64,000 bases of DNA from Candidatus Nealsonbacteria bacterium (lineage in GTDB: Bacteria; Patescibacteriota; Minisyncoccia; Minisyncoccales; MHMH01): NCBI GenBank assembly GCA_016181965.1, contig JACOYH010000003.1, positions 1,013 to 65,012 of the forward strand. The letters are read 5' to 3'. A program made the translations under genes and the position numbers. Below are positions 4,973-62,757 of this stretch, one piece after another (position 1 is the first letter of the stretch; every line of letters starts with the position of its first letter). The notes under the pieces are model-generated. The model worked only from the letters and a program-made list of their open reading frames with translations, was not told the DNA's origin and made no database searches.

Positions 4973-4983
4973 AGATCGTTTCT

Positions 4984-5031
4984 GGTTGAAGCCAGGCTCT
5001 AACCGAGTTCGGTTAGAGCCTGGCTTCAACC
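4984..5031. repeat. REP-B: 48-nt perfect palindrome (23-nt arms)
   Basis: GGTTGAAGCCAGGCTCTAACCGA-GT-TCGGTTAGAGCCTGGCTTCAACC. Related copies lie at 55367-55408 and, rearranged, at 32978-33002. Confidence 0.9.
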
Positions 5032-5042
5032 AACTTAAGGAC

Positions 5043-11836: not shown

Positions 11837-11852
11837 AACCCCCTAGGAAGGA

Positions 11853-11873
11853 TTGCTTAGCTAAGCTAAGCAA
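11853..11873. repeat. REP-A copy 1 (loop TAA)
   Basis: TTGCTTAGC-TAA-GCTAAGCAA: 9-bp stem, 3-nt loop. Confidence 0.9.
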
Positions 11874-11890
11874 CTCGAATCAACTGAAGA

Positions 11891-11925
11891 ATCGCCTATG
11901 GACTTTCTGGCCAGGCGATTTTTTG
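11891..11925 (+). terminator. rpoC terminator
   Basis: ATCGCCT...AGGCGAT stem followed by TTTTTT. Confidence 0.6.
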
Positions 11926-11935
11926 GTATTATTAA

Positions 11936-11958
11936 GTTGCTTAGCTTAGCTAAGCAAC
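11936..11958. repeat. REP-A copy 2 (loop TTA)
   Basis: GTTGCTTAGC-TTA-GCTAAGCAAC. Ends 4 nt before the RAYT ATG. Confidence 0.9.
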
Positions 11959-11962
11959 TCAT

Positions 11963-12682
11963 ATGAGGGCAATTAAATTTGTACCAGGGCATTTTTATCA
12001 TATTTATAATCGAGGTGTTGATAAAAGGAATATTTTTAGAGATGAAACCGACAGGTGGCGCTGCTTGCAGGGTTTATGCCTTTTTAATGACGAGAAGAAT
12101 TCCAGTAATATTCTTTGGCAGATAGAGAAAAGTCGTGGCGAAGTAAATCTTAAGATATTAAAAGATTATCTCATTAAGGAAGGGAAGAAACCTATAGTAC
12201 ATATTTTGGCTTATTCTTTAATGCCGAATCATTACCATTTATTAGTGAAAGAATTTACCGCAGGAGGAATTACTAAGTTTATGCATAAGTTTGGCGGAGG
12301 ATATACGCGCTATTTTAATAATAAACATAGCCGCTCCGGTAGTTTGTTCGAGGGTTCATTTAAGGCGGTGCAGGTCGATAATGAGATTTATCTCCAATAT
12401 CTTTTAGTTTATATTAATGTAATAAATCCCGGCCAATTAATAGAGCCCAAACTCAAGGACGAAGGCATTAAGGACGTGACCGCATTAGTAAACGCCGTCG
12501 ATGGATGTCCTTGGACTACTCATCAGGAATACTCCGGAAATAGGGGTTCAATCATCATTGACGAGGAAATGTTAAATGAGTTTTTTTCAACTCCCGAAAA
12601 GTACCGTGATTTTGTCTGGCAAGTTTTGGCGGATAAGAAATATCAGGCAATTACGCATCTGACTATTGAGAAAACAGATTAA
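11963..12682 (+). CDS. IS200/IS605-like Y1 (HUH) transposase of the REP-associated tyrosine transposase (RAYT) type
   Basis: 239 aa. N-terminal HFYHIYNRGV, HUH motif MPNHYHLLV, and candidate catalytic Tyr in LLVYINVINP. Confidence 0.7.
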   Translation: MRAIKFVPGHFYHIYNRGVDKRNIFRDETDRWRCLQGLCLFNDEKNSSNILWQIEKSRGEVNLKILKDYLIKEGKKPIVHILAYSLMPNHYHLLVKEFTAGGITKFMHKFGGGYTRYFNNKHSRSGSLFEGSFKAVQVDNEIYLQYLLVYINVINPGQLIEPKLKDEGIKDVTALVNAVDGCPWTTHQEYSGNRGSIIIDEEMLNEFFSTPEKYRDFVWQVLADKKYQAITHLTIEKTD

Positions 12683-12683
12683 A

Positions 12684-12706
12684 GTTGCTTAGCTTAGCTA
12701 AGCAAC
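12684..12706. repeat. REP-A copy 3 (loop TTA)
   Basis: GTTGCTTAGC-TTA-GCTAAGCAAC. Starts 1 nt after the RAYT stop codon. Confidence 0.9.
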
Positions 12707-24933: not shown

Positions 24934-24989
24934 TAAATTATTTTACCAAGAATGCGCCTCCAGCGCAACCCACTAGAGCTTATCGAAGC

Positions 24990-26216
24990 TTACCGACGTC
25001 CGACGTCGGTAAGCTCAGCCGCTCGGAGGTGATGATGGTATTTTTTGGCAAAGCGATGGGCTTCATCGCGCAGTTGAAGGATAATGTTGGAAAATTCTCT
25101 CGGCATATTTTTCAGCAAGACGGGATTTTTCTCGTTATCAATATATAATTTATTATTTTTTTTAGCCAGCGCAACAATTCTAACGGGGTGTTCAACACCG
25201 AGTGTTGCACAGTTTTTGGCGGCGTTGAGCTGGGCTTTGCCGCCGTCGATTAAAATCAAGCCGGGATATGGCCATTCTGTATGCCGAAATCGTCTTGAAA
25301 GGACCTCCTTGAGCATGGCCACGTCATTGGGTTTCTGTGTCATTTTTATTTTAAACTTGCGGTATTGTGACTTTTCCGGCCGGCCATCGGTGAAAACAAC
25401 CATTGAACCGGTGGCGGATTCACCCTGAATATTGGAAATATCATAGGCCTCGGCCCTTTGATACGGCCAGTTTCTAATCGGCTCCGTTGTTTCAAAAATT
25501 CTGGCGTGCGAAAATACGCGGTCAAGCGCGGCAAGCTGATACTTGATTTTGTTAGCTTCTTCAAACTTTTCTTCCCCGGATAGCTTGACCATTTCTTTCT
25601 TGAGGTCGCTTAAAATGCGCGACTTTCCATTTCGCAGAATTTTTGTTAAGCCGCGAACATTGCTTTGACATTCTTTTCGCATTTTTCCCAAAAAGCCGGG
25701 TATCTCTGGGTTTACCAAACACGGCGCTGGGCAGCGGTCTAAGTGATGCCAAAGGCAAGGGCGTTTTGGCAGGTTGCGGCAAGTTCTGTACGGGAAGACC
25801 TTTCTTAGGATTTTCAGGGTTTGCTTTAGCGCCCCGCCATCAACGAAAGGCCCGACATAATGAAAATCAGATTTTATTTGGTGCGTGATAAAAATGCGAG
25901 GAAACGACTCTTTGGTGGCGGCAATATAGAAATAATTTTTATCATCTTTCCATGCAACATTATAAAGGGGTAGATGTTTTTTAATTAGTTGCGCTTCCAG
26001 TATCAGGGCTTCAATTTCCGAATCCGTTTTGATGAAGTCAATTTTCTCAACCTTACTAATAAAAAGATGGTCCCTATGCGAGGGCTGGGCAAAGTGATTT
26101 CTGACCCTTTCTTGAATATTGGCGGCTTTACCTATATATAGAAGCTCTTTCCTTGAACTGAAAGTATAAACGCCCGGGCTTTTTGGCAGCCGCGAATAAC
26201 TCGACAAGCTTTTCAT
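24990..26216 (-). CDS. uvrC: Excinuclease ABC subunit C, short form
   Basis: 408 aa. GIY-YIG (PGVYTF...LYIGKA), UVR-like coiled region, and the RNase-H-like endonuclease domain (AYDISNIQG). No C-terminal (HhH)2 domain is visible. Confidence 0.85.
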   Translation of the reverse strand: MKSLSSYSRLPKSPGVYTFSSRKELLYIGKAANIQERVRNHFAQPSHRDHLFISKVEKIDFIKTDSEIEALILEAQLIKKHLPLYNVAWKDDKNYFYIAATKESFPRIFITHQIKSDFHYVGPFVDGGALKQTLKILRKVFPYRTCRNLPKRPCLWHHLDRCPAPCLVNPEIPGFLGKMRKECQSNVRGLTKILRNGKSRILSDLKKEMVKLSGEEKFEEANKIKYQLAALDRVFSHARIFETTEPIRNWPYQRAEAYDISNIQGESATGSMVVFTDGRPEKSQYRKFKIKMTQKPNDVAMLKEVLSRRFRHTEWPYPGLILIDGGKAQLNAAKNCATLGVEHPVRIVALAKKNNKLYIDNEKNPVLLKNMPREFSNIILQLRDEAHRFAKKYHHHLRAAELTDVGRR

Positions 26217-32085: not shown

Positions 32086-32985
32086 ATGAACATCTATAAG
32101 CAAGCCGACTCCAATATAAGAAAGACATGGCTTTACATGCTTTCTTTTTTGGTTTTGCTGATTGCCCTCGGCTGGCTGATGTCTTATTATTTTCAAAGTC
32201 CGGGCATTCTTTACGCGGCCGTGGGCTTGAGCTTGTTTTTGAACATCGCTGCCTATTGGTTTTCTGACAAAATTGTTTTGTCTATGAGCGGGGCGAGGCC
32301 TATAGAAAAAAAAGACCACCCCGAGCTTTACCGTGTAGTTGAAAATCTGTGTATTACTGCCGGCTTGCCTTTGCCAAAAATTTACATTATTGAATCCAGC
32401 CAACCGAACGCTTTCGCCACCGGCCGCGATCCAAAACACGCAGTCGTGGCCATTACTCGCGGGTTGCTGGAAAAGCTGGAAAGAGCGGAGTTGGAGGGAG
32501 TTATTGCCCACGAGCTCTCGCATATCGGCAACCGCGATATGCTTTTGCAAACAGCCGTGGTGGTGATGGTGGGAGTTGTCGTGATTATGACCGATTTTTT
32601 CTTTAGAATCAGCTTGTTTGGAGGGATGAATCGCAGGGACAGAGAGGGCGGGCAATTGGGCGTTATTATGATTGCGGCGGCATTGGCCCTGGCGATTTTA
32701 GCGCCGCTCTTCGCTCAATTCATAAAGCTGGCGATTTCAAGAAAAAGAGAATATTTAGCCGACGCTTCAGGCGCGCTTTTAACTCGATATCCCGAGGGGC
32801 TGGCCCGGGCATTGGAAAAACTTCAGGCCGATTCCAGCCCGATGAAAAAAATCAACGACGCCACCTCGCATCTTTATATCGTTAATCCTTTTAAGGGAAA
32901 AGAAAGAACTTCTTGGCTGCACAAGCTTTTTGCTACGCACCCGCCCATAGAAGACAGAATTAAGGCCTTAAGAGCAATCGGTTAG
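32086..32985 (+). CDS. htpX: Zinc metalloprotease HtpX (M48)
   Basis: 299 aa with the HELSH zinc motif and 4 TM helices. The stop codon lies inside the REP-B-related palindrome. Confidence 0.92.
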   Translation: MNIYKQADSNIRKTWLYMLSFLVLLIALGWLMSYYFQSPGILYAAVGLSLFLNIAAYWFSDKIVLSMSGARPIEKKDHPELYRVVENLCITAGLPLPKIYIIESSQPNAFATGRDPKHAVVAITRGLLEKLERAELEGVIAHELSHIGNRDMLLQTAVVVMVGVVVIMTDFFFRISLFGGMNRRDREGGQLGVIMIAAALALAILAPLFAQFIKLAISRKREYLADASGALLTRYPEGLARALEKLQADSSPMKKINDATSHLYIVNPFKGKERTSWLHKLFATHPPIEDRIKALRAIG

Positions 32986-33002
32986 AGCCTGGCTCTAACC
33001 GA
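32978..33002. repeat. REP-B-related short palindrome (arms in swapped order)
   Basis: TCGGTTAGAGCC-T-GGCTCTAACCGA, with 12-nt arms that share the REP-B core. Confidence 0.85.
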
Positions 33003-38311: not shown

Positions 38312-38336
38312 GAAAAAGGGGTCAGGTCCCTTTTTC
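38312..38336. repeat. REP-D left copy
   Basis: GAAAAAGGGGTCAGGTCCCTTTTTC: stem AAAAAGGG/CCCTTTTT, loop GTCAGGT. Confidence 0.8.
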
Positions 38337-38368: not shown

Positions 38369-39049
38369 ATGCCTCGATCTCCCAGAATAATTGATGATGA
38401 TGCTATATATCACATCTTGAATCGCGCAAATGGGAGAATGCGTATTTTTGATGACAAAAAAGACTATTTTGCGTTCGAAAAGATTATCATCGAAGCAAAA
38501 AATAAATATCCGGTCGGGATTTTATCTTTTTGTATAATGCCAAACCATTGGCATTTTGTTTTACAACCCAAAAACGGCAAAGATCTAGTCTCCTTTATGC
38601 GCTGGGTAACGCTTACTCATACTCAGAGATGGCTGATAAGTAAAAATATGAAAGGATATGGACACATCTATCAGGGGAGGTATAAATCATTTCCAGTTCA
38701 AAATGATGAACATTTTTTGCAGGTATGTCGGTACGTAGAACGGAATGCCCTACGAGCCCGATTAATAGATAAAGCAGAAGATTGGAGATGGGGGAGCGCT
38801 TGGATTAGGAAGTACGGAAACAAAGAACAAAAAGAACTATTATCGGAATGGCCGGTACGCCTCAATAACGACTACCTTGCCGCATTGAATCAAAAAGACG
38901 ATAATGAGTCAGAGGTATTAAAAGATTTACGCGAATCCGTTAATAGGGGTAAACCGTTTGGATCGGATAACTGGGTTAAGGAAATTGCAAGAAAGCTTAA
39001 CATCGGATCAACATTAAATTTAAAGGGAAGACCAAGAAAAGGGACCTGA
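38369..39049 (+). CDS. IS200/IS605-like Y1 (HUH) transposase, RAYT type
   Basis: 226 aa. AIYHILNRANG, HUH motif MPNHWHFVL, and Tyr motif CRYVERNALRARL...W.WGS. Confidence 0.7.
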   Translation: MPRSPRIIDDDAIYHILNRANGRMRIFDDKKDYFAFEKIIIEAKNKYPVGILSFCIMPNHWHFVLQPKNGKDLVSFMRWVTLTHTQRWLISKNMKGYGHIYQGRYKSFPVQNDEHFLQVCRYVERNALRARLIDKAEDWRWGSAWIRKYGNKEQKELLSEWPVRLNNDYLAALNQKDDNESEVLKDLRESVNRGKPFGSDNWVKEIARKLNIGSTLNLKGRPRKGT

Positions 39050-39058
39050 CCCCTTTTC
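39036..39058. repeat. REP-D right copy (inverted)
   Basis: GAAAAGGGACCTGACCCCTTTTC. The RAYT stop codon TGA lies in its loop. Confidence 0.8.
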
Positions 39059-48609: not shown

Positions 48610-48632
48610 GTTGCTTAGCTAAGCTAAGCAAC
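48610..48632. repeat. REP-A copy 4 (loop TAA)
   Basis: GTTGCTTAGC-TAA-GCTAAGCAAC. Confidence 0.9.
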
Positions 48633-55287: not shown

Positions 55288-55329
55288 GAATCGAAAGATT
55301 TCCGGAAATCTTTAGGATCTCGGCAGAAG

Positions 55330-55366: not shown

Positions 55367-55408
55367 TGAAGCCAGGCTCTAACCGAGTTCGGTTAGAGCC
55401 TGGCTTCA
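55367..55408. repeat. REP-B copy (20-nt arms)
   Basis: TGAAGCCAGGCTCTAACCGA-GT-TCGGTTAGAGCCTGGCTTCA. A partial extra arm, GCTGAAGCCAGC, lies just upstream. Confidence 0.9.
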
Positions 55409-55423
55409 TGTTAAACTTAAAAA

Positions 55424-56287
55424 ATGCGGAAGAATCATGTTTTTAATATTTTAGGTATTTTGGCTGGCTTAAATATCCTTGCCTGGATTGCGGTTTGGGA
55501 GTTGGGACAAGACGGATTAGAGGTAACTTTTTTTGATGTAGGGCAAGGAGACGCGGCGTTTATCGAGATGCCCGGAGGCCAGCAGATTTTAATTGACGGG
55601 GGACCGTCCTCCGTAATTCTGGAAAAACTCGGCAAAGAAATGCCTTTTTGGGATAGGACGATTGATTTAATAATTTTGACGCATCCAGAACACGACCACA
55701 TGGCGGGACTCCTTGAGGTTTTAAAAAGATACGAAGTCGAGAATATTTTATGGACCGGCGTTTTGCGCGATACGGCTGAATACGAAGAATGGATTAAACT
55801 GCTTCAAGAGGAAGGCGCCAAGATTTATATTGCCGAATCCGGCATGATGATTTCCGGAAGCCCGGCTTCCAGCGGGAAGCCGGGCTTCCTCGTCCTATAC
55901 CCGTTTGAAAGCTTAGAGAGCAAAGAAGTGAAAAATACCAATGCCACTTCCATAATTTTGCGTTTATCATACGGCGAAACCTCATTTTTATTCACCGGCG
56001 ACGCTCCAAAGTCAGTTGAAAGCCAGTTGCTTAGCTTAGCTAAGCAACTCACGAGGGCGGGGGTGCTGAAGGTGGGCCATCACGGCAGCAAAACATCTAC
56101 TTCTGCGGAATTTGTGGAAGCGGTCTCGCCGGATATTGCCGTGATTTCCGCGGGAAAAGATAATAAATACGGACATCCGCATCAGGAGGTTTTGGATAAT
56201 TTGTCGGGCGTTAAGGTTTTGCGGACCGATTTAGACGGCGATATCAAAATCGTCAGCAACGGCGCAGATTATATTGTCAAAAATTAA
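55424..56287 (+). CDS. ComEC/Rec2-related metallo-beta-lactamase domain protein (MBL domain only, N-terminal TM anchor)
   Basis: 287 aa with FFDVGQGDA, THPEHDHMAGL and KVGHHGSKTS. Confidence 0.8.
   Translation: MRKNHVFNILGILAGLNILAWIAVWELGQDGLEVTFFDVGQGDAAFIEMPGGQQILIDGGPSSVILEKLGKEMPFWDRTIDLIILTHPEHDHMAGLLEVLKRYEVENILWTGVLRDTAEYEEWIKLLQEEGAKIYIAESGMMISGSPASSGKPGFLVLYPFESLESKEVKNTNATSIILRLSYGETSFLFTGDAPKSVESQLLSLAKQLTRAGVLKVGHHGSKTSTSAEFVEAVSPDIAVISAGKDNKYGHPHQEVLDNLSGVKVLRTDLDGDIKIVSNGADYIVKN
56026..56048. repeat. REP-A copy 5 (loop TTA), inside the ComEC-like CDS
   Basis: GTTGCTTAGC-TTA-GCTAAGCAAC, translated in frame as (Q)LLSLAKQL. Confidence 0.9.
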
Positions 56288-58737: not shown

Positions 58738-58817
58738 GTTCCTTAGCTAAGCTAAGCAACTTTGTTAGTTCCTTAGCTAAGCTAAGCAACTTTGGTTGCT
58801 TAGCTTAGCTAAGGGAA
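58738..58817. repeat. Cluster of three REP-A copies (6, 7, 8)
   Basis: 58738-58760 and 58768-58790 (GTTCCTTAGC-TAA-GCTAAGCAAC, within a 30-bp tandem duplication), and 58795-58817 (GTTGCTTAGC-TTA-GCTAAGGGAA, degenerate arm). Confidence 0.85.
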
Positions 58818-62687: not shown

Positions 62688-62692
62688 GTTAT

Positions 62693-62757
62693 TGAGGGAT
62701 TTACGAAATCCCTCACAGCGTTGAGGGATTTCGTAAATCCCTCAAAAATCCCTCAAA
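62693..62757. repeat. REP-E: two adjacent palindromes in opposite orientation plus a third half-arm
   Basis: TGAGGGATTT-ACG-AAATCCCTCA (62693-62715), TTGAGGGATTT-CGT-AAATCCCTCAA (62721-62745), AAATCCCTCAA (62747-62757). Confidence 0.85.

What the first reader, a model, noticed from the sequence alone, without database searches (positions are those of the whole stretch)
11853..12706. RAYT-type HUH transposase gene bracketed within 1-4 nt by copies of a 21-23-nt palindrome (REP-A) that is dispersed eight times in the window
Seen in sequence. The CDS 11963-12682 carries IS200/RAYT hallmarks: HFYHIYNRG, HUH as NHYHLLV, and a Tyr in VYINVINP. GTTGCTTAGC-TTA-GCTAAGCAAC ends 4 nt before its ATG (11936-11958) and starts again 1 nt after its stop (12684-12706). 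A third copy with the inverted loop (TAA) lies at 11853-11873. Further copies lie at 48610-48632, 56026-56048, 58738-58760, 58768-58790 and 58795-58817. Established knowledge: REP elements and their cognate RAYTs are described mainly in Proteobacteria, with REPs typically flanking the RAYT gene. Inference: this looks like an active or recently active REP/RAYT system in what appears to be a very small, streamlined CPR-like genome. Dense selfish or structural repeats are not what one would expect there. As far as I know REP/RAYT systems have not been characterised in that group, but I cannot verify this here.
Basis: partly seen in the sequence, partly recalled or inferred. Interest (0 to 1): 0.6.

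Follow-up and report, generated by a model that had tools for sequence, protein, structure and literature searches.

The report
Hairpin repeats with tamed transposase, CPR bacterium
A tiny-genome Nealsonbacteria (CPR) bacterium carries a single-copy, vertically inherited IS200-like nuclease gene bracketed by a 23-base hairpin repeat that is also scattered through the genome, even inside genes; this matches the REP/RAYT systems known from Proteobacteria, in a protein family and bacterial group where I found no description of them.

Summary
Eight copies of TTGCTTAGC-TWA-GCTAAGCAA lie at the stated coordinates, against 0 to 0.07 expected by chance. Two bracket the 239-aa CDS 11963-12682, 4 nt before the ATG and 1 nt after the stop.

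The protein is a Y1 HUH enzyme:
- Pfam Y1_Tnp scores 37 bits.
- H90, H92 and Y150 are invariant.
- The best fold match is the E. coli REP-associated transposase, 4ER8.

It is not an IS200 copy. There is one copy in the window. The rpoC-gene-ftsK order is kept in four other Nealsonbacteria-like genomes, and the protein diverges at housekeeping rates.

The link between gene and hairpins holds across the family. Of 76 distinct homologue loci (35-76% identity), 30 carry matching perfect palindromes on both sides, against 0 of 263 control ORFs. Palindrome sequence changes with protein divergence.

It departs from classical RAYTs in four ways: no GT[AG]G guide, a symmetric GTTG...CAAC foot, a Y-x4-NP motif, and a score below the NCBIfam RAYT cutoff.

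Three further findings:
- Hairpins sit in frame inside housekeeping genes.
- The site after rpoC carries each genome's own hairpin variant.
- Two hairpins bound a slot holding a different small gene in each relative.

Verdict: a real REP/RAYT-like system, a new variant in CPR. Current activity is unproven.

The parts
11852..11874 (.). REP-A copy 1 (ATTGCTTAGC-TAA-GCTAAGCAAC), 15 nt after the rpoC stop. Together with copy 2 it forms an inverted pair resembling a REPIN.
11890..11924 (+). Terminator-like hairpin (AATCGCCT...AGGCGATT followed by a T run) in the 61-nt spacer between copies 1 and 2. Four related genomes hold a small variable gene at this position.
   Evidence: The terminator role is inferred; the scan tool did not list it because its loop exceeds 8 nt.
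11936..11958 (.). REP-A copy 2, a perfect 23-mer ending 4 nt before the ATG of the Y1 gene. No room is left for an unpaired ribosome-binding site.
   Evidence: ssDNA hairpin -10.9 kcal/mol, z -5.5
11963..12682 (+). RAYT-like Y1 HUH gene, 239 aa. HuH motif is N89-H90-Y-H92, the catalytic Tyr is Y150, and N155-P156 follow.
12684..12706 (.). REP-A copy 3, a perfect 23-mer starting 1 nt after the stop codon and 42 nt before ftsK.
48610..48632 (.). REP-A copy 4, perfect, 11 nt after the stop of an ABC-3 permease gene. It is absent from the orthologous spacer of relative L028.
56026..56048 (.). REP-A copy 5, perfect and in frame (it encodes LLSLAKQ) inside the ComEC-like MBL-fold gene 55424-56287. 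Orthologues carry decayed palindromes at the same codons.
58738..58760 (.). REP-A copy 6 (GTTCC variant), the first unit of a 30-nt tandem duplication between tRNA-Pro and the M50 peptidase gene.
58768..58790 (.). REP-A copy 7 (GTTCC variant), the second tandem unit. With copy 8 it forms a 20-bp-stem doublet resembling a REPIN.
58795..58817 (.). REP-A copy 8, degenerate at its 3' arm, 21 nt upstream of the likely M50 peptidase ATG (58839).

Best explanation
This is a REP/RAYT-type system (a 'REPtron') in a Candidatus Nealsonbacteria genome. The gene 11963-12682 encodes a domesticated single-tyrosine HUH nuclease. It is inherited vertically at a fixed chromosomal position.

Its cognate substrate is the 23-nt hairpin REP-A. 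REP-A brackets the gene and is scattered at other sites, mostly just outside genes and sometimes in frame inside them.

Proposed mechanism, by analogy with E. coli TnpAREP and IS608 TnpA:
1. The hairpin forms on transiently single-stranded DNA at the replication fork.
2. The enzyme recognises the conserved foot (GTTGCT...AGCAAC) and the stem shape.
3. It cuts next to the foot through a 5'-phosphotyrosine link.
4. It rejoins the strand at another cleaved hairpin or hairpin-like site.

This would spread copies. It would also overwrite existing copies, keeping the copies within one genome alike.

What is shown:
- the fold and conserved catalytic residues;
- the family-wide gene-hairpin linkage;
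- dispersal within the window;
- vertical inheritance;
- lineage-specific hairpin variants at conserved positions.

What is inferred: binding, cleavage, strand transfer, and any present-day activity.
For: Protein:
- Pfam Y1_Tnp, E 3.4e-9.
- H90, H92, Y150, N155 and P156 are invariant in 27 homologues of 53-76% identity.
- The AF2 model has pLDDT 85. Its best PDB match is 4ER8, the E. coli REP-associated tyrosine transposase bound to a REP hairpin (E 2.7e-5). IS608, IS200 and ISDra2 TnpA follow.

Linkage between gene and hairpin:
- Of 76 distinct homologue loci with enough flank, 30 have perfect palindromes (stem at least 8 bp) within 70 nt on both sides that share an 8-mer arm. The figure for control ORFs is 0 of 263. 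A further 23 loci have a palindrome on at least one side.
- Arm similarity tracks protein identity (Mantel r 0.35, p at most 2e-4).

Dispersal:
- Eight copies at five loci across 47 kb.
- Four of the five loci are intergenic although about 91% of the window is coding.
- Extra copies away from the gene occur in related loci, for example five copies in the 20.7 kb of L024 and three away from the gene in L026.

Domestication:
- One copy in the window.
- The rpoC-gene-ftsK order is kept in L018, L029, L020 and L030/31. RAYT identity there is 61-76%, rpoC 74-76% and ftsK 54-66%.

Hairpin positions:
- The same three positions (after rpoC, before the ATG, after the stop) are occupied in all five syntenic genomes. 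Each genome has its own inner-stem variant.
Against: - No biochemical or population evidence of mobility exists.
- The canonical 5' GT[AG]G guide is missing and the hairpin is symmetric, so the cleavage site cannot be predicted.
- The curated RAYT model is not reached (22.9 against 80 bits).
- A family profile finds no solved Y1 protein by sequence.
- The motif spacing is Y-x4-NP rather than Y-x3-NP.
- About 30% of homologue loci show no perfect palindrome on either side.
- Only 64 kb of the genome could be examined.
- Palindromic symmetry alone cannot separate a single-strand hairpin from a duplex site bound by a dimer.
- The Mantel signal would also arise from shared ancestry of linked sequences.
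Confidence: 0.78

Rival explanations
1. The unit REP-gene-REP is an autonomous insertion sequence of the IS200/IS605 type. The flanking hairpins are its left and right ends, and the solo hairpins are remnants or miniature derivatives.
For: - The Y1_Tnp domain is present.
- IS200/IS608 elements carry subterminal hairpins, and IS608 and IS200 TnpA are among the fold matches.
- Over longer distances the gene sits in different contexts: L021, L024 and L112.
Against: - There is a single copy in the window, and no locus among 593 kb of homologue loci holds two copies.
- Synteny is conserved, and divergence equals that of neighbouring housekeeping genes in five genomes.
- The protein is 239 aa with Y...NP, not about 150 aa with Y...Q (Quentin 2018, PMC6006769, Table 1).
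- Both ends carry the same symmetric hairpin rather than distinct left and right ends.
- No tnpB was seen among the called genes of any locus where the gene list was examined.
Confidence: 0.05
2. The palindromes are host regulatory or structural elements, such as mRNA 3'-end stabilisers, attenuators, duplex binding sites for a dimeric protein, or nucleoid sites. They do not depend on the Y1 protein. The gene merely sits where such elements accumulate.
For: - Several copies lie immediately after stop codons: rpoC, the Y1 gene and ABC-3.
- The copy 4 nt before the ATG could control translation.
- Symmetric palindromes suit dimeric duplex binders.
- Positions are conserved between genomes.
Against: - Matching palindromes on both sides of the gene occur in 30 of 76 lineages against 0 of 263 control ORFs.
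- The palindrome sequence changes from lineage to lineage with the protein. A general host signal should not be tied to one gene in this way.
- No T tract follows the hairpins on the coding strand.
- Stems range from 8 to 23 bp and include nested duplications, which is atypical for an operator.
- Copies inside coding sequence are hard to reconcile with a terminator role.

A secondary host function on top of RAYT dependence is not excluded.
Confidence: 0.1
3. The 10-mer arm GCTAAGCAAC is a DNA uptake sequence of a naturally competent CPR bacterium. It occurs as inverted pairs, as Neisseria uptake sequences often do downstream of genes.
For: - CPR genomes encode ComEC-type uptake proteins; one is in this window.
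- The same 21-mer occurs in several CPR MAGs.
- Inverted uptake-sequence pairs after genes are known in Neisseria (my own knowledge).
Against: - Every one of the 12 arm occurrences is part of a full palindrome, and there are no single arms.
- Density is about one locus per 13 kb, far below known uptake sequences.
- The sequence differs between close relatives.
- The tight linkage to the Y1 gene is unexplained by this reading.
Confidence: 0.02

Closest known systems
E. coli TnpAREP (RAYT, YafM) with REP/BIME sequences: the REPtron (subclass 2.2 of Quentin et al. 2018; PDB 4ER8)
   Same: - Single-copy Y1 HUH gene flanked by its own hairpin repeat.
- The same hairpins are dispersed, mostly extragenic and often in inverted pairs.
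- Best structural match.
- Vertical inheritance.
   Different: - 11% sequence identity, and no profile hit by sequence.
- 239 aa against 165 aa, with an additional helical C-terminal region.
- NHYH and Y-x4-NP here, against DHLH and YIHYNP.
- The hairpin here is a short, perfect, symmetric stem with a 1-3 nt loop and a GTTG...CAAC foot. The E. coli REP is a bulged long stem preceded by GTAG (PMC6006769, sections 12 and 15).
Subclass 2.4 TnpAY1 (Bertels Group 4; Cyanobacteria and Bacteroidetes) with 'double-foot' REPs
   Same: - Symmetric hairpins carrying the foot motif on both sides.
- NH[IFV]H-type HuH.
- REP copies inserted in frame in genes, including the transposase gene itself. Distant CPR homologues likewise carry a copy inside the gene about 160-190 nt from the start.
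   Different: - The foot is GT[AG]G...C[TC]AC there and GTTG...CAAC here.
- Median length is 194 aa there.
[quoted passage not shown]
- The host phyla differ. Membership could not be tested because the subclass HMMs were not available.
Subclass 2.1 / TIRYT (Bertels Group 1)
   Same: - Median length 238 aa.
- NH[YF]H and an FQ-type motif (PMC6006769, Table 1).
- Wide distribution.
   Different: - Subclass 2.1 genes have no REPs. They are flanked by terminal inverted repeats with GGGG[AT][CG]A[CG], and carry a C-terminal HTH domain.
- None of that applies to this gene.
- The flanking inverted repeats do fit a second Y1 gene in the same window, 38369-39049; no C-terminal HTH was found there either.
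Pseudomonas REPIN-RAYT systems (Bertels and Rainey; subclass 2.5)
   Same: - Single-copy RAYT.
- Hairpin doublets: 11852-11958 and 58768-58817 are inverted pairs.
- Lineage-specific repeat sequence.
- Long-term vertical persistence.
   Different: - Most copies here are singlets, and the two doublets have unrelated spacers (61 nt and 4 nt).
- The apparent copy number is much lower.
- The guide tetranucleotide is absent.
Rickettsia palindromic elements (in-frame palindromic insertions in protein-coding genes; my own knowledge, not checked here)
   Same: Palindromic repeats tolerated in frame inside housekeeping genes of a small, gene-dense genome.
   Different: - The Rickettsia elements are about 100-150 bp, add a peptide segment, and have no known cognate enzyme.
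- Here the element is 23 nt. Homologue alignment shows no added length in the MBL gene; in TsaC the same holds only by comparison with my recalled E. coli YrdC sequence, not a tool result.
- A cognate Y1 gene is present.

Membership tests
RAYT / TnpAREP (class 2 TnpAY1) | Y1 HUH fold with a His-hydrophobic-His motif and one catalytic tyrosine | tested here: met
   Pfam Y1_Tnp 37.3 bits against a cutoff of 23. H90, H92 and Y150 are invariant in 27 homologues. AF2 model pLDDT 85; top PDB match 4ER8, probability 1.00.
RAYT / TnpAREP (class 2 TnpAY1) | Tyrosine motif Y-x3-NP (class 2) rather than Y-x3-Q (IS200) | tested here: inconclusive
   The family motif is Y150-I-N-V-I-N155-P156, that is Y-x4-NP, invariant across the family. 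There is no Q. It is one residue longer than the published signature (PMC6006769, Table 1).
RAYT / TnpAREP (class 2 TnpAY1) | Gene flanked on both sides by its cognate REP hairpins (REPtron) | tested here: met
   In the window the gaps are 4 nt and 1 nt. Of 76 homologue loci, 30 are flanked on both sides, against 0 of 263 control ORFs.
RAYT / TnpAREP (class 2 TnpAY1) | The same hairpin is dispersed in many copies, mainly extragenic, across the genome | tested here: inconclusive
   Met within 64 kb: eight copies at five loci, four of them intergenic in a window that is about 91% coding. The rest of the 194,735-bp contig and of the genome could not be read.
RAYT / TnpAREP (class 2 TnpAY1) | Conserved 5' GT[AG]G guide tetranucleotide at the foot of the hairpin | tested here: not met
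   The foot is GTTG, mirrored as CAAC on the 3' side, and no conserved base lies outside the stem. More distant homologues have unrelated feet.
RAYT / TnpAREP (class 2 TnpAY1) | Single or low copy number, with vertical inheritance | tested here: met
   One copy in the window, and none of the homologue loci holds two. The rpoC-gene-ftsK order is kept in four other genomes, with divergence like that of the neighbours.
RAYT / TnpAREP (class 2 TnpAY1) | Score at or above the curated cutoff of NCBIfam NF047646 (REP_Tyr_transpos, equivalog) | tested here: not met
   22.9 bits against a cutoff of 80.
RAYT / TnpAREP (class 2 TnpAY1) | Sequence-specific binding, cleavage and rejoining of single-stranded REP DNA | not testable with these tools
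   This needs purified protein and oligonucleotides.
IS200/IS605 TnpA (subclass 1.1) | Short core-only protein (about 150 aa) with Y-x3-Q | tested here: not met
   The protein is 239 aa, has a conserved C-terminal region, and carries NP rather than Q.
IS200/IS605 TnpA (subclass 1.1) | Multiple near-identical gene copies at variable sites, distinct left and right end hairpins, often with tnpB | tested here: not met
   Single copy and conserved synteny. The hairpin is identical and symmetric at both ends. No tnpB was seen next to it in any locus whose gene list was examined.
TIRYT / subclass 2.1 | Flanking terminal inverted repeats with GGGG[AT][CG]A[CG], no REP, and a C-terminal HTH domain | tested here: not met
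   The flanks are REP-A hairpins, and no HTH domain appears in Pfam. The flanking-repeat feature, but not the HTH domain, is met by the other Y1 gene, 38369-39049.

The most novel reading that the evidence does not exclude
A very large Y1 HUH family has lived with its own hairpins in ultra-small CPR genomes since before the Parcubacteria orders diverged. All of its named relatives among the best 120 hits are CPR bacteria. On this reading it is more than a REP spreader:
- It rewrites hairpins in place. Orthologous sites after rpoC carry each genome's own hairpin variant.
- It writes length-neutral, in-frame palindromes into loops and helices of essential genes: ComEC-MBL, TsaC, UvrC, CysRS and LigA.
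- Together with a second hairpin it bounds a slot next to its own gene, in which unrelated small genes are exchanged (CutA1, cupin, glyoxalase, one unknown). This would be a single-strand, HUH-based analogue of an integron cassette site.
Probability: 0.25. Interest if true: 0.8.

Novelty: new variant of a known kind. Interest (0 to 1): 0.62.

Why it matters
REP/RAYT systems are the best example of a transposase tamed by its host. They have been studied almost only in Proteobacteria, with large-genome bacteria favoured; Quentin et al. 2018 found non-IS Y1 genes enriched in genomes above 5 Mb.

Here the same arrangement appears in one of the smallest and most gene-dense bacterial genome types. 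The protein family has thousands of members and evolves at housekeeping rates. That argues for a host-level function strong enough to survive genome streamlining.

CPR genomes are small, so they give a compact setting to ask three questions:
- What do REPs do?
- How are hairpin copies kept alike within a genome?
- How often do such elements remodel coding sequence?

The short, perfect, symmetric hairpin and a small enzyme also make an attractive minimal system for single-strand DNA cutting and joining in vitro.

Tried and rejected
- Sequence search of the family profile against all PDB chains found no Y1 protein even at E up to 10. Homology to solved RAYT and IS200 proteins therefore rests on Pfam and on fold comparison.
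- The genome-contig scan for the 21-mer did not recover the source genome. It found 16 solo copies in other CPR MAGs instead. None has a RAYT homologue within its locus of 8 kb or less, by tblastn or by profile search.
- I guessed from the peptide 'CLAKLS' in the N-terminal extension of P0035 that its gene is preceded by exact REP-A. The DNA shows a related but different palindrome, GTGCTTAGC-TAAA-CTAAGCAC.
- Strand or orientation bias relative to replication cannot be assessed. GC skew is positive across the whole window, but the hairpin is symmetric apart from one central base, and the copies split 4:4.
- I tested whether the copy in the MBL gene is a recent 23-nt insertion and rejected the idea. 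Homologues have the same length there, and three orthologues carry decayed palindromes at the same codons.
- I looked for the in-gene copy tracking the genome's own flanking variant in a second genome (L110/L112). It does not; that genome has heterogeneous variants.
- Rfam has no family over any palindrome.
- A formal base-pair covariation count was not run. The palindromes were selected for being perfect, so the test would be circular; the control-ORF comparison was used instead.
- The terminator scan did not call REP-A a terminator on the coding strand.
Full report
**1. The observation**

- The CDS 11963-12682 encodes 239 aa containing GHFYHIYNRG, MPNHYHLLV and LLVYINVINP.
- GTTGCTTAGC-TTA-GCTAAGCAAC ends 4 nt before the ATG and begins again 1 nt after the stop.
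- Six further copies lie at 11852, 48610, 56026, 58738, 58768 and 58795.
- There are seven matches at up to 2 mismatches against 0.00 expected, and eight at up to 3 mismatches against 0.07 expected.
- All twelve occurrences of the 10-mer arm belong to these palindromes.
- Each copy folds as a single-strand DNA hairpin of -8 to -11 kcal/mol, with z-scores of -4 to -5.5.
- Two independent Logan assemblies contain the same copies.

The hairpin is symmetric except for its central base. 'Orientation' therefore means only T or A at the centre, and the copies split 4:4.

**2. The host and the gene**

The protein is MBI2042208.1, annotated 'transposase', from a Candidatus Nealsonbacteria MAG contig of 194,735 bp. 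The CPR guess is right.

- Pfam gives Y1_Tnp at 37 bits.
- The curated RAYT model NF047646 gives only 22.9 bits against a cutoff of 80.
- A word-indexed search found more than 2,400 relatives. The best 120 are 53-76% identical and about 238 aa long. Every named one comes from a CPR lineage: Nealson-, Portnoy-, Wildermuth- or Pacebacteria, Parcubacteria, or Patescibacteria.
- In 27 of them N89, H90, H92, Y150, N155 and P156 are invariant.
- The family profile hits no solved structure by sequence.
- An AlphaFold model (pLDDT 85) matches best the E. coli REP-associated tyrosine transposase bound to its REP hairpin (4ER8, E 2.7e-5). The IS608, IS200 and ISDra2 transposases follow.

**3. It is not an insertion sequence**

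- The window holds one copy.
- The order rpoC, this gene, ftsK, recA is kept in four other genomes (L018, L029, L020, L030/31).
- The protein is 61-76% identical there. RpoC is 74-76% and FtsK 54-66% identical in the same genomes.
- That is vertical descent at housekeeping rates, the hallmark of domesticated RAYTs (Bertels et al. 2017, PMC5581495).
- In more distant lineages the neighbours differ. The gene has therefore moved, or the genome has rearranged, over long times.

**4. The gene-hairpin link is a family property**

I fetched 80 homologue loci from metagenomes, at 35-76% identity.
- Of 76 distinct loci with enough flank, 30 have perfect palindromes (stem at least 8 bp) within 70 nt of both the start and the stop, sharing an 8-mer arm.
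- A further 23 have a palindrome on at least one side.
- None of 263 other ORFs in the same loci has the two-sided matching pattern.
- The palindrome differs from lineage to lineage: GTTGCTTAGC, GTTGCTCCAC, GTTGCTCGGC, TTGTGCTTAAC, then unrelated sequences such as TACAAGGTT or CTGTCGGTAT below 45% identity.
- Arm similarity follows protein identity (Mantel r 0.35, p at most 2e-4). Shared ancestry would contribute to this signal.
- Extra copies away from the gene occur in many loci.

Within the clade of the window, the foot GTTGCT...AGCAAC (or TGTGCTT...AAGCACA) is kept while the inner 3-6 base pairs and the 1-3 nt loop vary. This suggests, but does not show, that the enzyme reads the foot and the shape.

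**5. Anatomy in the window**

- Copies 1 and 2 (11852-11874 and 11936-11958) form an inverted pair around a 61-nt spacer. The spacer holds a terminator-like hairpin, and the whole region folds at -37 kcal/mol with z -9.5.
- Copies 7 and 8 form a tight doublet with a 20-bp stem.
- Copies 6 and 7 are a 30-nt tandem duplication.
- Four of the five loci are intergenic although about 91% of the window is coding.
- Several copies sit directly after stop codons.
- The copy 4 nt before the ATG leaves no room for an exposed ribosome-binding site. By analogy with IS200 (my own knowledge) this may hold expression down.

**6. Signs of turnover**

A syntenic 12.6-kb contig from a relative, L028, has proteins about 70% identical.
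- It lacks REP-A in the ABC-3/glycosidase spacer and upstream of the M50 peptidase gene.
- It has almost no long palindromes at all.

All five genomes that share the rpoC-gene-ftsK order have a hairpin just after rpoC, just before the gene and just after it. In three of the four relatives the three sites carry that genome's own variant. This fits either repeated re-insertion at preferred sites or copying over existing hairpins. The data cannot tell which.

**7. Hairpins inside genes**

Copy 5 (56026-56048) lies in frame in a ComEC-like MBL-fold gene and encodes LLSLAKQ.
- It adds no length relative to homologues.
- Three orthologues carry imperfect palindromes with the same TTGCTT...AAGCAA foot at the same codons, with loops CTG or CGG.
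- The element there is therefore old, and it is perfect only in this genome.

- I estimate about 0.3 expected for random sequence.
- All named hosts are CPR MAGs, including Saccharibacteria.
- Seven of the 16 lie in frame inside TsaC/Sua5 (two genomes), UvrC (two), CysRS, a PGA_cap protein, and the zinc finger of LigA. They encode LLSLAKQ or CLAKLS, the only two stop-free readings of the hairpin.
- REP insertions in genes are known (PMC6006769, section 12). Their frequency here and their length neutrality are notable.

**8. A variable slot**

Between the post-rpoC hairpin and the hairpin before the gene, the four relatives each hold a different small gene:
- an unknown 118-aa protein;
- CutA1;
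- a cupin;
- a glyoxalase-family protein.

The window holds none. This may be ordinary flux at a recombination-prone spot, or hairpin-mediated exchange of cassettes. With five genomes this is only a lead.

**9. Comparison with known kinds**

By architecture and fold this is a REPtron.

In the scheme of Quentin et al. 2018 it fits class 2 (NP motif). It matches no subclass cleanly:
- Its length and NHYH resemble subclass 2.1. But 2.1 lacks REPs, has GGGG[AT][CG]A[CG] inverted repeats, and has a C-terminal HTH.
- The symmetric 'double-foot' hairpin and the in-gene copies resemble subclass 2.4. But the foot is GTTG, not GT[AG]G.

The window also contains a second, different Y1 gene (38369-39049, 25% identical). 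It is flanked by two inverted copies of AAGGGGTCAGGTCCCTT, which carries the TIRYT consensus. The two types therefore coexist and are distinct.

Five full-text searches found nothing linking REP/RAYT with CPR. Subscription journals are not covered by that library.

**10. Verdict**

This is a real REP/RAYT-like system. It is best described as a new variant of a known kind, in a phylum and genome type where I found no description of it.

- The mechanism is inferred from homology.
- Present-day activity is not shown.
- Genome-wide dispersal could be checked over only 64 kb.
- Confidence in the main reading is 0.78, and interest is 0.62.

Noticed in passing
window 38369-39049 (+), with 38316-38332 and 39039-39055: A second, different Y1 HUH gene of 226 aa. 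Pfam Y1_Tnp gives 57.7 bits and NCBIfam RAYT 70 bits against a cutoff of 80. Its motifs are NHWH and RYVERNA, and it is 25% identical to the REP-A gene. It is flanked by exactly two inverted copies of AAGGGGTCAGGTCCCTT, which contains the published TIRYT repeat consensus GGGG[AT][CG]A[CG]. This repeat is not dispersed in the window.
   Followed up: partly
window 4983-5032, 32978-33002, 55367-55408: A second dispersed palindrome family, 'REP-B': GGTTAGAGCC-T-GGCTCTAACC. It occurs twice as inverted doublets with 20-24 bp stems and once as a perfect singlet, all between genes. The layout GGTT...GCC-N-GGC...AACC resembles the hairpins flanking RAYT homologues in other genomes such as L024 and L035.
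   Followed up: partly
window 62692-62745: A third palindrome type, TGAGGGATTT-ACG-AAATCCCTCA, present as an inverted doublet with a 24-bp stem.
   Followed up: no
window 55856-55889 (inside the MBL gene 55424-56287): A pair of short palindromes, GGAAGCC-C-GGCTTCC and GGAAGCC-G-GGCTTCC, lies in frame and encodes GSPASSGKPGF. It sits in a region where several homologues, including the L028 orthologue, are about 8 residues shorter. One gene therefore carries two different palindromic elements.
   Followed up: partly
L018 7394-7750, L029 3866-4186, L020 672-1013, L031 7729-8073 (corresponding to window 11875-11935): The interval between the hairpin after rpoC and the hairpin before the RAYT gene holds a different, unrelated small gene in each of four relatives: unknown, CutA1, cupin and glyoxalase. 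In the window it holds none. It looks like a hairpin-bounded variable slot.
   Followed up: partly
L002, L003, L005, L006, L010, L014, L017 (other CPR MAGs): The exact REP-A 21-mer lies in frame inside TsaC/Sua5, UvrC, CysRS, a PGA_cap protein and the LigA zinc finger, encoding LLSLAKQ or CLAKLS. In TsaC and LigA it appears to replace native residues without changing length; that comparison rests on sequences recalled from memory. It is unexplained why the identical DNA persists across lineages as far apart as Saccharibacteria and Nealsonbacteria.
   Followed up: partly
L073 about 10149, L102 about 5621, L095 about 10182, L099 about 10163, L082 about 3967, L078 about 1785, L072 about 6877 and 6901: In distant homologues (36-41% identity) a copy of the flanking palindrome also lies inside the RAYT gene itself, about 160-190 nt from the start. 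This recalls the in-gene REPs described for subclass 2.4.
   Followed up: no
L062, L072, L087, L021: In lineages without the rpoC-gene-ftsK order, RAYT homologues are still often within a few kb of rpoB/rpoC.
   Followed up: no
window 55294-55313 and L028 7027-7046: The 20-bp perfect palindrome AAAGATTTCCGGAAATCTTT is conserved at the same place upstream of the MBL gene in the window and in a 70%-identical relative. It could be an operator.
   Followed up: no
window 24987-25015: A solitary 14-bp-stem palindrome, AGCTTACCGACGTC-C-GACGTCGGTAAGCT, overlaps the end of ORF 24990-26216. It is not related to REP-A.
   Followed up: no
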